Part shown: in pieces, positions 38,601 through 64,000 of the stretch
Layout: the number at the start of each line of letters is the position of its first letter
How positions within the stretch are numbered: the first letter of the stretch is position 1
From: Pocillopora damicornis
Lineage: Eukaryota
NCBI RefSeq assembly: GCF_003704095.1
Contig: NW_020845097.1
Location: 62,001-126,000, forward strand
Length of the DNA: 64,000 bases
Direction of reading: 5' to 3'
Made by a program: the position numbers

Positions 38601-41600
38601 AGTTTATGTCACCTACATCTTCAGTAAGCTAAGGGGTTTTTATCAAATATCTTCTGAAGTGTATTCCTTAAATTATCCGGAAAATGAAATTGTGAAAAGC
38701 GATTACTTTGCTCCTCGTATTTTCAGTTTAGTAAGAACTGAGTTTCAAGGAGTTGGCTAAAATGTTCGTAAGTTTACCGTAATTCCTCGAATAAACGCCT
38801 GGGCACTTATTTAAAATTTCACGAATTTTTAGAAGAAGGAACACGCTAATCCACAAGTCAGGCAAACATGTAGGGTCCTTGCCGACATATCCGAGAACAG
38901 GGTCTTTGTCTAAATTTCGTTTACCCTCTCAAGAGGATTTCGAAAAGTTTTTTCGTGGAATGCTCGATCATTTTGGCCATGGACGAAATCCTGACCAGTG
39001 AGTGAAAGTAAGGTGAATCAAAACAAAAGGTTGGCCAACCAAGGGAACATTTAAAATTTTTTAGAGGCTCTAGTTGAGCATCGTCCAGGAAACGTCATTA
39101 GAGTGGTATCACTAGGAAGCCCTGAGGAAGTGGAGGATGGATGACAATCCCAAAACCATACTATGGAATTATCATCCGACACAAGTTCACCTCTGTTTAC
39201 CGATGAACAGGTTAGGGAGAGGGAGAAGGATTAACGCCCTTCCTTCCTGCAGAAGGGGGTCTCGCNNNNNNNNNNGGTGGCGGCTTATACGGGGGAAGGC
39301 AGAGTTGAAGGCGGAGTTTAAGAGCGTGGGCGCTGATTGGAGGAAATACGGTATTTCTTCCAAACACAATCGAGAGCTAAATAGCGAAGTTTTTAGACCC
39401 GTCAAACAAAACGAAACAACATTTCTGTGATCTAAAATAAATATTTATTTTAATCATCAGCTAAAATCTTGTTACAATTATTTCCTAAATTTCTACTCTC
39501 TGTTTATATAAATATTATAGATAAATAAATACAAATATTACAAAATATTTATAAATATATATTCTAAAATAAATATATTTGTAAGGCTTTTTCGTTGAAA
39601 TAAAATGAACAGTTATAACTTTTAAATAAATAAAAGACGTTAATAAATATTTAAAAATAATCGGCAATAAATACAATCTCGCATATAAACAATTTGACAA
39701 TTTTAGACTAAGTCAACAAACTATTTTAATTTAGTGGCCATGTAACAATGTTCAAATGTACCAATAATGTGGTATTGTCAGTTATTTTATATTTGAGACA
39801 AGAATGCGTGACTAATTAATTTGAAACTATTTCGAAGCATTTTTTTGGTTCCTTTTGGGAAGGAAAATAATTTTGTCTCGAATATCGAATACTTTGTAGA
39901 ATTCAATATACAAAATTAAATTATATTTCGGTAAGATATCTCAGAAACATTTTAATAGCAAGTTTTTCTGTTTCTCCCATAGAGAGCCATGTAAAATTAA
40001 TATTTTCAGGTAAATAAACCTTCATTTACGAAAGTGAGTTCATACGAACATTTTAATAACATCTTTTTTTCTGTTTCTCCTATAAAGAGCCTTGTAAAAT
40101 TAATATTTTCAGGTAAATAAACCTTCTTTTACGAAAATGAGTTCATATGAACATTTTAAGAACATGTTTTTCTGTTTCTCCCATAGAGAGCCTTGTAAAA
40201 TTAATATTTTCAGGTAAATAAACCTTATTTTACGAAAGTGAGTTCATATGAACACTTAAATTACATCTTTTTTTCTGTTTCTCCTTTAAAGAACCTTGTA
40301 AAATTAATATTTTCAGGTAAATATACCTTTTTTTACGAAAATGTGTTCATATGATAACAAAAAATCCAAAATTATATTCTCACGAATGGAGTAACTTCTG
40401 TTACAATATAAATACTAAATGAAATTTTTTTGCAATAAATACTTTAAATAATTTTTCTGAATTTCAAATAAATAACCTAAAGACTCTTAGCATTATTTCT
40501 GTTATATGGTGTATTCTATAAACTGCACTGATCTTTGCGACGAGCGCACCTTTTTCGCTGACTTTGTTCTTCCATCCCTGGTGATCGCTAGATACCACCG
40601 TTTGTTCAGTTTTGATCTGTACCGCGTGTAGCCCTTAGACGTGTGTTCCTGATGAAAGATGCAACCAAGGTCTGTCTTCACTTGATGCGACGGCTGTGAA
40701 ATAATACAAGTGTTATTAATGTCAGTACTTCAGTGGAGATGATCCTATCTGGTTTATATACATTGCCAGTTTGGGAGGTGAGTCCATATTGTGAAAGACT
40801 GACCATAGAAAACCTTTTTTCAGGTACAGTAATAGATACCTTATTCATGGCGTGACAACCACCGAACGGAAATGAAAAGTTTTGCCCTATTAATTCATCG
40901 CTTTTCTGAACAATACCGCCCTAAAGAGTTGTTTCTCTTTTTCTTTTTGGGAAAACTTCATTTCGATCTTCGTTTCATGACAGGATTCGTCTCAAACATT
41001 AGTGTGAAAATCTTGATAGCTTGCCCTTGCAACGTTGGCTAATTCCAAGGCCAGACGATATGATCTGTCTAGGCATTTTGGTATGATATTATCAGACACC
41101 GACTAATCGTTCAATCAAGGTTAAGAGACCCTGATTCAATCGATATTAAGCACCTTTTCAGGTGGTTGTCTCACGATGATTCATCGTTGTCCCTATTCAC
41201 TGATTAGTTCATTGACACTTTCTTCAGGTTAGCCTTTGAGGCGGGTGTAACTCGCTCGCAGCCCATCCCTCTCGCTTATCCATCACGTATGTACATCCGT
41301 ACGTGAACGAACGTTCTCGAACACCCCTACACCTTATTCGCATTCATTTCAAAGCTCTTGACTACACTTCTATCTGCTATCGATGTTGAAAAAACAATCC
41401 AATCGCTTGTGTGTGGGGTATGTGGTGGTTTATGATTTGCCCGTATTACTTTTCGATCTCATCCAGTCCGGTATTGATTCTCAGATCTTGTTTAATACTT
41501 CACGGGAGGCTGCGCTCCAAACACTTTCCTGTCTGCGGTTGCTCTCTCGAATGAAATTTTCTGAACAGTTAACGCGTACTCCTCAGTCTAAATGAGGCAG

Positions 41601-62600: not shown

Positions 62601-64000
62601 GTTTCCATCTCTTCAACAATATGCAAAAATTTTCGGAACATTTTGAGCTACTCTACGCAGACAAACGGTCGTTCAGAGAGAGTTCTCTTGTTTTGAAAAC
62701 TGTAATCCCTTTTAACAATTAATATTTTTGCCTTCATAAGCTCTAATTACCACCTGCGAGCCATCAGTATTGTTTCGTCACCTCAGTTCAAGCTTGAATT
62801 ATCAAAGGAGGTGCTTTCAATGGGGCTGCCATTTGAAGAGATCTTAATTCATTTAGCACTATATTCCTTATTAATTCAACTCTCGGTGCAATCTCATTCG
62901 AAATAATGTCGGTGCTATTTCAAATGTTCGGGATCTTTTCCACCTGTATTTGGTCCGCTATATGGATAAATGTCGTCCAAGTCCCTACTATAAGTGGATG
63001 TAAGTTGTGCAACAGCAAAGTGGAACGAGAGAAAAGATTGATTACTGTCCAAGGACAAATTTTGGCGAAGCTCGGTTTAAAGAAGCCCCCAGATGAAAGT
63101 GAAAGTGCTTCGAATGTGAGTCGTCAGGTCTTGCAGACCTACAAAAGTGCGGTGAGGGAAAAAGACAAGCTTTTACTTGAGACGAAAATTTGCCGTTCCC
63201 AGATTGACACCGAAGAGTTTTTCGCGAAGAGAGTTGAGCGAATTCTGCTGGAAAAAGAGGTCGCACGAACGGCTGTATCAAGTGAGTATGCCATGATAAC
63301 CTTAAAGCTGATTTACATTTAAAAAAACTTTTAATTAGTTTTGTTGTTTCATGATCCATCGTCTTCATTTAATGAATACCGAGATTTTAGTTTATCGCCA
63401 CATTCACTTTTCTCTTGCTAACTTGTCATGACAGCCGTAACTACAAGAACAGGAAAATACGCTTGGAACTCTGTTAATCTAACTGTGAAGGAGACGAAAA
63501 TTGTAGTTTGAGAGAATGGCGAGTCCGAGATATCCGATAGTAAGTGGACGAGGTTACACTGTTCTTGAATAAGTTTCTGTATACATTGAAAAAAAAAACT
63601 CCAAACGAAGTTCAAGATGAAGAGAGATGTTTTTCCAAAGTCTTGTTACGAGAGTTTGACGAAGGAAAGATTTGAGTTCCCATGAGGAATCAAATCTTAG
63701 ATCTTAAGATTTCGCGCTCTGATGCTCTATCACTGTACAACAGGGAACGATATGGTGAAATAGGTAACGAACTGACAGAATAACTTGACTATTTCACAGG
63801 TTCTAAAGACAGGAATTTCAAAGATATATACTGGCTGAGGTTTAATACCAGTAGGCTGGTGAAGGAGAAAGTTAGCGTGTCTCTGGCAGAGCTGCGCGTT
63901 TATCAGACACCAAACCAGCGACATCCTGTGAGTGATGTGCGAATTGATGTTTGTGAAAACACACGAAAATACAACAAAAACAACATAAATGGCTGCTCCA

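What the first reader, a model, noticed from the sequence alone, without database searches (positions are those of the whole stretch)
40502..63281. Three consecutive secreted developmental ligand genes: FGF8-like, Pinhead-like and TGF-beta-like
Seen in sequence: the only genes found between 32 and 64 kb are three secreted signalling proteins. FGF and the Pinhead-like gene are transcribed divergently across ~9.2 kb of CpG-rich, nearly MITE-free non-coding DNA. Established: in Xenopus, pinhead is FGF-responsive and its activity depends on FGF receptor/ERK signalling. Inference: this may be a co-regulated ligand cluster (genomic regulatory block) with shared enhancers in 44-53 kb.
Basis: partly seen in the sequence, partly recalled or inferred. 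Interest (0 to 1): 0.7.

Follow-up and report, generated by a model that had tools for sequence, protein, structure and literature searches.

The report
Coral FGF, Pinhead-like, TGF-beta gene trio
A coral genome carries three genes for secreted signalling proteins side by side, and two of them repeat a gene pairing known from insects to fish that had not been described in corals.

Summary
The window matches Pocillopora: a public P. damicornis protein maps at 100% identity.

- **FGF gene**, minus strand, five exons, 43986-40505. It passes Pfam FGF. "FGF8-like" is not supported: the nearest solved FGF is FGF2.
- **Pinhead-like gene**, plus strand, eight exons, 53182-61124. It encodes a 296-aa protein with three cystine-knot repeats. 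It is probably Pinhead, but no named Pinhead could be retrieved.
- **TGF-beta gene**, same strand, 1.8 kb downstream. Only the first two exons are in the window. The prodomain start matches only TGF-beta1/2/3 among solved structures.

250 further ORFs gave no other convincing Pfam family; there is no tRNA or Rfam hit. The FGF and Pinhead-like start codons are 9,195 bp apart.

CpG o/e is 1.03 across all of 32-64 kb against 0.34 in 1-31 kb. 15 of 16 MITE ends lie in the left half. These features are therefore not special to 44-53 kb.

The closest precedent is the bilaterian pinhead-admp tandem. The shared-enhancer idea could not be tested, because no eukaryotic genomes were searchable.

The parts
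43934..43986 (-). FGF exon 1: ATG plus a hydrophobic N-terminus (signal-peptide-like); donor GTGAGT, phase 2
   Evidence: Read from the sequence. No homologue was available to confirm this exon, so it is inferred.
43801..43837 (-). FGF exon 2, a 37-nt mini-exon between a ...tttgcag acceptor and a gtaagt donor
   Evidence: Read from the sequence. It keeps the frame between exon 1 and exon 3. Inferred.
42753..42924 (-). FGF exon 3: start of the beta-trefoil
   Evidence: Pfam FGF E 0.0053, profile positions 2-32. PDB: all 14 matches are FGF2, best E 0.013. Splice sites.
42177..42283 (-). FGF exon 4, 107 nt
   Evidence: Consensus acceptor and donor, phases fit. No Pfam or PDB match on its own.
40502..40693 (-). 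FGF exon 5 plus the stop codon (40502-40504)
   Evidence: Pfam FGF 44.8 bits, E 1.5e-11, profile positions 70-124 of 124. PDB: FGF2 8e-7, FGF8b 2.9e-5, FGF18 1.1e-4. Strong acceptor at 40694-40696.
43987..53181 (.). 9,195-bp interval between the divergent FGF and Pinhead-like start codons
   Evidence: No convincing Pfam match in any ORF of 40 aa or more. 0 bases in within-window repeats. No MITE terminal repeat. CpG o/e 1.05.
53182..53266 (+). Pinhead-like exon 1 (signal-peptide-like N-terminus)
   Evidence: 100% match to P0001 residues 1-28. Unique GT-AG solution.
55429..55536 (+). Pinhead-like exon 2
56971..57056 (+). Pinhead-like exon 3
57990..58212 (+). Pinhead-like exon 4: end of cystine-knot repeat 1 and the CxGxC of repeat 2
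   Evidence: The ORF around it found 73 relatives at E<=1e-3 among 1.84 billion representatives.
59375..59437 (+). Pinhead-like exon 5
59912..60021 (+). Pinhead-like exon 6
60626..60690 (+). Pinhead-like exon 7 (CxGxC of repeat 3)
60977..61127 (+). Pinhead-like exon 8 plus the stop TAA (61125-61127)
61128..62905 (.). 1,778-bp spacer between the Pinhead-like stop and the TGF-beta ATG, same strand (tandem)
   Evidence: Coordinates. CpG o/e 0.96. No convincing Pfam match.
62906..63281 (+). TGF-beta proprotein exon 1: hydrophobic N-terminus, a Cys pair, and the first prodomain helix
   Evidence: Pfam TGFb_propeptide 26.2 bits against 25.8, E 7.8e-6. PDB: 15 of 15 matches are pro-TGF-beta1/2/3, best E 7.7e-5. 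Donor GTGAGT.
63800..64000 (+). TGF-beta proprotein exon 2, incomplete or followed by an intron after 63928. The rest of the gene is outside the window.
   Evidence: Pfam TGFb_propeptide E 0.0028, profile positions 111-153. Acceptor ...ttcacag. No PDB match on its own.
32001..40501 (.). 8.5-kb interval 3' of FGF with no recognisable gene and no CpG depletion. Contains a 10-N run at 39266-39275.

Best explanation
Shown:
- 40.5-64 kb of this Pocillopora window holds three real genes for secreted signalling proteins. They are an FGF, a 296-aa protein with three cystine-knot repeats, and a TGF-beta-superfamily proprotein.
- The start of the TGF-beta prodomain resembles TGF-beta1-3.
- All three genes lie in a 32-kb block that is not CpG-depleted and lacks the MITE family found in the neighbouring housekeeping genes.

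Inferred:
1. The cystine-knot gene belongs to the Pinhead family.
2. Its position 1.8 kb upstream of a TGF-beta-family gene, on the same strand, is the cnidarian counterpart of the bilaterian pinhead-admp tandem. In bilaterians the upstream gene encodes a secreted binder or modulator of the ligand encoded downstream. In Ciona, transcription of the upstream gene interferes in cis with the downstream gene's enhancer, so the two are expressed in exclusive domains. I propose that the coral pair works the same way: cis-coupled expression of a ligand and its extracellular partner.
3. The CpG and MITE pattern reflects a germline-unmethylated, regulation-dense domain of stage- or tissue-restricted genes.
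4. The FGF gene may share this regulatory landscape, given the 9.2 kb of divergent upstream DNA. This is the weakest step.
For: Gene models and family matches:
- FGF.
- Pinhead-like. Exact identity to P0001 with unique splice solutions.
- TGF-beta.

The cystine-knot family:
- 73 relatives at E<=1e-3, 15 at E<=1e-10.
- About 300 aa, with three repeats carrying CxGxC...CxC (alignment A1).
- AlphaFold model: mean pLDDT 87.9, pTM 0.74.
- Best domain-sized fold matches are TGF-beta3, GDF8, the GDNF family and hCG-beta, at probability 0.95-0.99 and TMt 0.45-0.53.
- Named relatives come from corals, Hymenoptera, a barnacle, a sea star and a sponge.
- Atlas neighbours are arthropod and chordate clusters of 300-320 aa. 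Zebrafish Pinhead is 316 aa.

Literature passages read:
- pinhead is immediately upstream of admp from arthropods to vertebrates, and this matters for exclusive expression in Ciona (PMC6989304).
- Pnhd has multiple cystine-knot domains, binds Admp, also pulled down Lefty, and is induced by FGF (PMC8188501).

Domain features: CpG o/e 0.34 against 1.03; 15 of 16 MITE ends in the left half; no other recognisable gene.
Against: - No protein named Pinhead was recovered. All 18 named hits are 'uncharacterized' or 'hypothetical'. The N-terminus I read from the Xenopus translation-blocking morpholino matches none of the fetched relatives.
- The downstream gene does not look like ADMP, which is BMP class. 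Its first 125 residues match only TGF-beta1/2/3 prodomains. The mature domain that defines subfamilies is outside the window.
- Whole-model Foldseek E-values are not significant: 0 matches at E<=0.001.
- The Pfam propeptide score is only just above its cut-off.
- No expression, chromatin or cross-species data were available, so cis-coupling and co-regulation are untested.
- A BMP-response-element pattern has no match in the ligand block.
- Seven ORFs of 119 aa or more occur in 32-64 kb, against 2.3 +/- 1.4 in simulations. Five are unexplained, so an orphan gene in an interval is not excluded.
Confidence: 0.55

Rival explanations
1. FGF and the Pinhead-like gene form a genomic regulatory block. 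Enhancers in the 9.2-kb divergent interval drive both genes, and this ties a Pinhead-type factor to FGF signalling.
For: - Divergent orientation, with 9,195 bp free of recognisable genes, repeats and CpG depletion.
- Xenopus Pnhd is induced by FGF and interacts with FGF signalling (PMC8188501 passages).
Against: - The same sequence features hold for 32-40.5 kb and for the gene bodies, so nothing singles out this interval.
- None of the five paper searches made listed a paper describing an FGF-pinhead linkage.
- Conservation could not be tested.
Confidence: 0.2
2. Neutral adjacency. The three ligand genes are neighbours by history or chance, with no regulatory coupling. The CpG and MITE pattern only shows that none of them carries gene-body methylation.
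For: - CpG o/e near 1 also occurs at the single-exon PAQR gene (24-26 kb) and at 12-14 kb in the left half. It is therefore a general property of non-housekeeping or promoter DNA.
- No binding-site or conservation evidence was obtained.
Against: - A TGF-beta-family gene sitting directly downstream of this particular family, on the same strand, repeats an arrangement reported from arthropods to vertebrates.
- My rough estimate from recalled gene counts is about 10 TGF-beta genes among about 25,000. That puts such a neighbour at well under 1 in 1,000 by chance.
Confidence: 0.2
3. The downstream gene is the coral ADMP orthologue. The locus would then be a plain orthologue of the bilaterian pinhead-admp pair rather than a variant.
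For: - Position and orientation match the bilaterian pair.
- Only about 170 prodomain residues are in the window, and subfamilies are defined on the mature domain.
Against: - 15 of 15 PDB matches of exon 1 are pro-TGF-beta1/2/3. No BMP-class, activin or myostatin proprotein reached E<=10.
- The cysteine at the prodomain start aligns with the one in pro-TGF-beta1.
Confidence: 0.2
4. The three-cystine-knot protein is not a Pinhead orthologue. It belongs to a separate, unnamed metazoan family that merely shares the multi-cystine-knot build.
For: - No named Pinhead was among the hits.
- The family has no Pfam model and no solved relative.
- Cnidarian members lack two cysteines that bilaterian members have in repeat 1.
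Against: - Size, secretion signal and multiple cystine knots fit the published descriptions.
- So do the taxon range (arthropods, echinoderm, chordate clusters) and the position upstream of a TGF-beta-family gene.
Confidence: 0.12

Closest known systems
The pinhead-admp tandem of bilaterians (Imai et al. 2012, known to me only as cited in PMC6989304 and PMC8188501)
   Same: A gene for a secreted ~300-aa protein with several cystine knots lies immediately upstream of a TGF-beta-superfamily ligand gene, on the same strand. The spacer here is 1.8 kb.
   Different: - The host is a cnidarian. The passage read gives the known range as arthropods to vertebrates.
- The downstream prodomain resembles TGF-beta1-3, not the BMP class to which ADMP belongs.
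- An FGF gene lies divergently upstream.
- Cis-interference and protein binding are untested here.
Pinhead (Pnhd) protein of Xenopus, zebrafish and Ciona
   Same: - Signal-peptide-like N-terminus, about 300 aa, and multiple cystine-knot domains.
- 21 cysteines after the hydrophobic start. An odd number would fit the disulfide-linked dimers reported for zebrafish Pinhead. That link is my inference.
   Different: - Sequence identity to a named Pinhead could not be measured.
- Cnidarian members have two fewer cysteines in repeat 1.
TGF-beta sensu stricto proproteins (pro-TGF-beta1/2/3)
   Same: The first prodomain helix and the region after it align, including a cysteine at the prodomain start. 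Pfam TGFb_propeptide matches.
   Different: E-values are only about 1e-4. The cleavage site and mature domain are not in the window, so subfamily membership is open.
FGF family (PF00167)
   Same: A beta-trefoil FGF domain split over three core exons, plus a hydrophobic N-terminus.
   Different: Not demonstrably of the FGF8/17/18 group. FGF2 is the nearest solved structure for both informative exons. As far as I recall, FGF2 itself lacks a signal peptide, unlike this protein.
Genomic regulatory blocks and transposon-free regions around developmental genes
   Same: Large intervals without genes or repeats around developmental ligand genes, next to compact, repeat-bearing housekeeping genes.
   Different: The defining features, conserved synteny and arrays of conserved non-coding elements, could not be examined.

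Membership tests
FGF (Pfam PF00167) | FGF beta-trefoil domain above the Pfam gathering score | tested here: met
   Last exon 44.8 bits against a cut-off of 24, E 1.5e-11. Exon 3 E 0.0053.
FGF8/17/18 subfamily | Closer to FGF8/17/18 than to other FGF subfamilies | tested here: not met
   Last exon: FGF2 32.2 bits, FGF8b 27.3, FGF18 25.5. Exon 3: all 14 matches are FGF2. Exon 4: none. Exon-by-exon only; no tree was made.
FGF8/17/18 subfamily | Placement inside the FGF8/17/18 clade in a phylogeny of full-length FGFs | not tested
   No reference FGF sequences could be fetched.
Pinhead (Pnhd) | Secreted protein of about 300-330 aa with multiple cystine-knot motifs | tested here: met
   296 aa, hydrophobic N-terminus, three CxGxC...CxC repeats. 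Cystine-knot growth-factor fold matches at probability 0.95-0.99. Published descriptions.
Pinhead (Pnhd) | Significant sequence similarity to a named Pinhead (Xenopus, zebrafish or Ciona) | tested here: inconclusive
Atlas neighbours include chordate clusters of 316 and 320 aa, unnamed.
Pinhead (Pnhd) | Gene lies immediately upstream of a TGF-beta-family ligand gene (admp in bilaterians) | tested here: met
   The TGF-beta proprotein gene starts 1,778 bp downstream on the same strand. Whether it is admp is a separate row.
Pinhead (Pnhd) | Protein binds Admp or modulates Smad1 signalling | not testable with these tools
   The mature ligand is not in the window, and this is a biochemical property.
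TGF-beta superfamily | TGF-beta propeptide domain | tested here: met
   26.2 bits against a cut-off of 25.8 on exon 1 (only just above it). Exon 2 E 0.0028.
TGF-beta superfamily | Cleavage site and C-terminal cystine-knot mature domain | not testable with these tools
   Both lie beyond position 64000.
ADMP | BMP-class proprotein grouping with ADMP | tested here: inconclusive
   The prodomain start matches only TGF-beta1/2/3 in the PDB, which argues against ADMP. The mature domain, which defines the subfamily, is absent.
TGF-beta sensu stricto | Prodomain N-terminus with the tethering cysteine and first helix like pro-TGF-beta1-3 | tested here: met
   15 of 15 PDB matches (13 beta-1, 1 beta-2, 1 beta-3), best E 7.7e-5, with the cysteine aligned. 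The tethering role of that cysteine is recalled, not tested.
Genomic regulatory block | Synteny and non-coding elements conserved across distant species | not testable with these tools
Genomic regulatory block | Gene-poor, repeat-poor intervals around a developmental gene | tested here: met
   The feature is not specific to 44-53 kb.

The most novel reading that the evidence does not exclude
The tandem of a Pinhead-type gene and a TGF-beta-family ligand gene predates Bilateria. Its ancestral partner was not ADMP as such but a TGF-beta-class ligand. In corals the pair is further joined to an FGF gene in one unmethylated, transposon-free block. That would make a three-ligand cassette whose members are coupled in cis, by shared enhancers and transcriptional interference, and in trans, by Pinhead binding the ligand and responding to FGF.
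Probability: 0.2. Interest if true: 0.7.

Novelty: new variant of a known kind. Interest (0 to 1): 0.5.

Why it matters
The pinhead-admp pair is one of the few cases where gene order itself sets a developmental boundary. In Ciona, transcription of one gene silences the neighbour's enhancer.

In the passages I read, its known range is arthropods to vertebrates. A 2024 review of cnidarian BMP signalling lists Pinhead among regulators known "especially in chordates".

A cnidarian tandem would push the arrangement back to the cnidarian-bilaterian ancestor. The family also has a sponge member, so the origin could be older still.

A downstream partner that looks like TGF-beta rather than ADMP raises the question of which ligand Pinhead first regulated. 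This can be tested directly in Nematostella and in coral larvae.

The protein family has no Pfam model and no solved structure. The public records seen are all labelled "uncharacterized" or "hypothetical".

Tried and rejected
- **Whole-frame translation to Pfam:** I used single ORFs instead.
- **Full-length TGF-beta protein:** a homologue search with exon 1, lengths "longer", scored none of 166 candidates. The Atlas gave no usable hit. The PDB gave nothing for exon 2.
- **Source names for the Pinhead-like relatives:**
  - The profile search returned only "uncharacterized" or "hypothetical" names.
  - The Atlas clusters are unnamed.
- **Morpholino reading:** I read the start of Xenopus Pnhd from the published translation-blocking morpholino. 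None of the 86 relatives fetched begins that way, so this settled nothing.
- **Zebrafish guide RNA**: too short to use.
- **PDB profile search with the family alignment:** 0 matches.
- **BMP-response-element pattern:** 1 match, inside the PAQR gene, at chance level (14 of 100 shuffles). None in the ligand block.
- **Inverted repeats in 44-53 kb:** only low-complexity or weak pairs.
- **Ossipova et al. 2020:** not held.
- **Papers on TGF-beta sensu stricto in cnidarians:** nothing usable.
- **ADMP identity:** considered and set aside for now, on the evidence.
- **Complex prediction:** not run. The mature ligand is not in the window, and the FGF would have needed a joined model.
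Full report
**Source and method**

The window is from a stony coral of the genus Pocillopora, or something indistinguishable from it here. The ORF at 57903-58247 found P. damicornis LOC113670981 (P0001, 296 aa) as its best full-length relative. P0001 maps onto the window in eight pieces at 100% identity within the exon boundaries. For each of the seven introns exactly one GT-AG pair reproduces the protein.

Exons were searched one at a time, and the joined step was left out. Where a whole protein was needed I used the public record P0001. 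Three 10-N runs (1346-1355, 12554-12563, 39266-39275) were left as they are.

**FGF gene (minus strand)**

The exons are 43986-43934, 43837-43801, 42924-42753, 42283-42177 and 40693-40505, with the stop at 40504-40502. Every junction has a consensus acceptor and a GTAAGT or GTGAGT donor, the phases fit, and the coding length is 558 nt, or 186 codons.

- Exons 1 and 2 are inferred from the sequence alone. Exon 1 carries the ATG and a hydrophobic N-terminus. Exon 2 is a 37-nt mini-exon.
- Pfam FGF is clear on the last exon (44.8 bits, cut-off 24, E 1.5e-11) and weak on exon 3 (E 0.0053).
- "FGF8-like" is not supported.
  - Last exon against solved structures: FGF2 8e-7, FGF8b 2.9e-5, FGF18 1.1e-4 (102 sequences at E<=1, 60 shown).
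  - Exon 3: all 14 matches are FGF2, best E 0.013.
  - Exon 4: no match.
- The subfamily is therefore open. No tree could be made.

**Pinhead-like gene (plus strand)**

The exons are 53182-53266, 55429-55536, 56971-57056, 57990-58212, 59375-59437, 59912-60021, 60626-60690 and 60977-61124, with stop TAA at 61125-61127. No exon has a Pfam match. All 21 database relatives have no precomputed Pfam domain.

Evidence on the family:
- The exon-4 ORF found 73 proteins at E<=1e-3 among 1.84 billion representatives, 15 of them at E<=1e-10 and 2 at E<=1e-30.
- Full-length members are about 250-400 aa. They share three repeats, each with a CxGxC and a terminal CxC, and 11 columns are invariant (alignment A1, 23 sequences).
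- The internal repeats also show up as cross-matches (29% identity, E 1.8e-7).
- An AlphaFold model of P0001 built with A1 is confident: mean pLDDT 87.9, pTM 0.74. It consists almost entirely of long beta-hairpins.
- Foldseek against the PDB gives no match at E<=0.001 for the whole three-domain model. The domain-sized matches with probability 0.95-0.99 and TMt 0.45-0.53 are TGF-beta3, GDF8, GDNF-family ligands, hCG-beta and GDF11, which means the cystine-knot growth-factor fold.
- A profile of A1 finds nothing in the PDB by sequence.

**Is it Pinhead?**

In favour:
- The literature describes Pinhead as a conserved secreted protein with multiple cystine-knot domains (PMC8188501 passages).
- Zebrafish Pinhead is 316 aa (PMC6989304, section 7). 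FLAG-tagged Xenopus Pinhead runs at 36-38 kDa.
- The Atlas's three nearest clusters (score 0.93) are unnamed. One is an arthropod cluster of 300 aa, and two are chordate clusters of 316 and 320 aa.
- The 21 profile hits come from:
  - corals, 5 hits
  - Hymenoptera, 10 hits
  - a barnacle
  - the sea star Acanthaster
  - the sponge Oscarella
  - three unnamed records

Against, or missing:
- None of these 21 hits is called Pinhead.
- The first residues of Xenopus Pnhd, which I read from the published translation-blocking morpholino, match none of the 86 relatives fetched beyond P0001-P0003.

Membership is therefore probable, and I put it near 0.85. It was not shown by direct comparison.

**TGF-beta gene (plus strand)**

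The ATG is at 62906. Exon 1 runs to 63281 with a GTGAGT donor. Exon 2 starts at 63800 after a ...ttcacag acceptor. There is a possible donor after 63928, and the window ends at 64000. Only the hydrophobic N-terminus and about 170 prodomain residues are present. The cleavage site and the mature ligand domain are not.

- Pfam TGFb_propeptide: 26.2 bits against a cut-off of 25.8 (E 7.8e-6) on exon 1, and E 0.0028 on exon 2.
- Against solved structures, exon 1 matches 15 sequences at E<=10. All are pro-TGF-beta: 13 beta-1, 1 beta-2 and 1 beta-3, best E 7.7e-5. A cysteine at the prodomain start is aligned.
- No BMP-class, activin or myostatin proprotein appears in that list.
- ADMP belongs to the BMP class (PMC3169577 passage). 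On present evidence the gene is of the TGF-beta-like class rather than ADMP.
- This rests on 125 residues. The homologue search for the full protein found nothing.

**The intervals**

- Of 137 ORFs of 57 aa or more in 32-64 kb, only FGF (2) and TGFb_propeptide (2) match convincingly.
  - One further match, IL1, is the FGF exon itself.
  - Four others (PEX18/21_C, Ac81, DACZ_N, CstA) have E 0.0017-0.0097. I take these as chance, given 137 queries.
- Of 113 ORFs of 40-56 aa in 32.0-40.5, 44.0-53.2 and 61.1-62.9 kb, none matches.
- There are no tRNAs and no Rfam family.
- No transposase or reverse-transcriptase domain appeared.
- One reservation remains. Seven ORFs of 119 aa or more occur in 32-64 kb, against 2.3 +/- 1.4 (maximum 5) in 100 first-order Markov simulations.
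  - One is the TGF-beta exon, and one is antisense to Pinhead-like exon 4.
  - Five are unexplained: 43096-43467 (-), 45130-45486 (-), 50723-51085 (+), 55993-56364 (+) and 61391-61750 (-).
  - An orphan gene or a non-coding transcript cannot be excluded.

**CpG and repeats**

- CpG o/e is 0.34 over 1-31 kb and 1.03 over 32-64 kb. The switch falls within 31.0-32.0 kb, at the 5' end of the kinase gene.
- Within the right half the values are:

| Segment | CpG o/e |
|---|---|
| 32.0-40.5 kb | 1.05 |
| FGF gene | 1.15 |
| 9.2-kb interval between FGF and Pinhead-like | 1.05 |
| Pinhead-like gene | 0.97 |
| 1.8-kb spacer | 0.96 |

- "CpG-rich" is therefore true, but it is a property of the whole block. 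G+C is only 36-40%.
- The left half carries a ~210-bp element with ~20-nt terminal inverted repeats.
  - Its terminal motif has 16 matches in the window against 0.06 expected.
  - 15 lie before 29.3 kb, one (3 mismatches, solitary) lies at 36092-36109, and none lie in 40.5-64 kb.
  - My own arithmetic puts a 15:1 split between equal halves at a two-sided binomial p of about 5e-4.
- Self-comparison finds 0 repeated bases in 42-56 kb. The only repeats in the right half are:
  - a 103-bp tandem array at 39963-40354, just 3' of FGF
  - one copy of a second ~200-bp family at 57325-57533, in Pinhead-like intron 3
- The left half holds ordinary genes: SDE2, an anoctamin, a single-exon PAQR/HlyIII gene, and a Ras/Roc GTPase next to a kinase.
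- My reading is inference, and it relies on what I recall of invertebrate mosaic methylation. CpG-depleted gene bodies would mark broadly expressed, germline-methylated genes. The undepleted block would mark unmethylated, restricted genes.

**What is known**

[quoted passage not shown] The passage adds that this configuration matters for mutually exclusive expression in Ciona (PMC6989304 introduction).
- pnhd and admp are neighbours in lower vertebrates and birds. Xenopus Pnhd binds Admp and lowers Smad1 phosphorylation. Lefty and Dand5 were also pulled down. Pnhd is induced by Wnt and FGF (PMC8188501 passages).
- Yan et al. instead describe zebrafish Pinhead as a BMP-like ligand forming disulfide-linked dimers (section 7).
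- I know Imai et al. 2012 only through these citations.
- A 2024 review of cnidarian BMP signalling names Pinhead only among regulators known "especially in chordates" (PMC11226491).
- Three searches combined pinhead with other terms.
  -, with cnidarian terms, listed four papers holding "pinhead". One is the 2024 review. I opened one of the other three, PMC3820451, and it cites one-eyed pinhead only. The other two were seen as listings only.
  - Among the papers these searches listed, I saw none reporting a cnidarian pinhead or an FGF-pinhead linkage. This holds for the held library only.

**Explanation**

The best-supported account is that the Pinhead-like to TGF-beta tandem is the cnidarian form of the bilaterian pinhead-admp arrangement. 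It would be a secreted ligand-binder and a TGF-beta-family ligand kept head-to-tail, so that their transcription is coupled in cis.

What is shown: the genes, their order, the spacing and the sequence features. What is inferred: the family name, the homology of the arrangement, and the mechanism.

The FGF gene may share the regulatory landscape, but nothing here tests that. The rivals are set out with their tests in the Rival explanations section:
- a reader-style FGF-Pinhead block
- neutral adjacency
- a true ADMP orthologue downstream
- a non-Pinhead cystine-knot family

**What stayed unchecked**

- Gene order and non-coding conservation in other cnidarians.
- Expression and chromatin state.
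- The mature TGF-beta domain.
- The FGF subfamily.
- Direct comparison with a named Pinhead.
- The supplements of Yan et al. and Itoh et al. were closed. They may hold the sequences or primers that would settle the Pinhead name.

**Verdict**

The find is a moderately interesting variant of a known gene arrangement in a new phylum.

Noticed in passing
window 31000-32000: There is a sharp switch in CpG o/e, from 0.1-0.5 in 28.0-31.0 kb to about 1.0 from 31.5 kb onward. It sits at the 5' end of the kinase gene. Inside the depleted half there are undepleted islands at 12-14 kb and 24-26 kb (the PAQR gene).
   Followed up: partly
window 783-1001, 3534-3744, 7755-7946, 16757-16967, 18853-19064, 28833-29045: A ~210-bp MITE with ~20-nt terminal inverted repeats. 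There are at least six full copies, all in the CpG-depleted left half.
   Followed up: yes
window 39946-40354: A tandem array of a 103-bp unit (3.8 copies, 90% matches) starts about 150 bp 3' of the FGF stop codon. It could lie in the FGF 3' UTR. Function unknown.
   Followed up: no
window 57325-57533: A single copy of a second ~200-bp interspersed family, whose other copies are at 6010-6218 and 18569-18760. It lies in Pinhead-like intron 3 and is the only interspersed repeat found in 40.5-64 kb.
   Followed up: partly
window 29640-31845 (minus strand): Two large ORFs lie 0.5 kb apart on the same strand: a protein kinase domain and a Ras/Roc GTPase domain. This may be one kinase-GTPase fusion gene.
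   Followed up: no
window 2599-2880, 20322-20660, 25041-26036: Left-half genes: SDE2 domain (E 3e-18), anoctamin (E 1.5e-15), and a single-exon 332-aa PAQR/HlyIII protein (E 3e-35).
   Followed up: partly
alignment A1 (P0001 residues ~54-80): Cnidarian members of the cystine-knot family have one cysteine where bilaterian members have CC. They also lack the second cysteine of the CxxxC in repeat 1. The region is still modelled with pLDDT above 90.
   Followed up: partly
proteins P0080 and P0084 (Oculina patagonica ACROYT_G040235 and ACROYT_G040237): Two paralogues of the family sit two locus tags apart on one 38-Mb contig. The gene between them could not be looked up.
   Followed up: no
protein P0089 (Oscarella lobularis): A homoscleromorph sponge has a clear member of the family (E 1.1e-44 to the profile). 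The family is therefore older than the cnidarian-bilaterian split.
   Followed up: no
window 43096-43467(-), 45130-45486(-), 50723-51085(+), 55993-56364(+), 61391-61750(-): Five ORFs of 119-124 aa with no Pfam match. Together with two explained ORFs this is more than the Markov simulations give: 7 observed against 2.3 +/- 1.4.
   Followed up: partly
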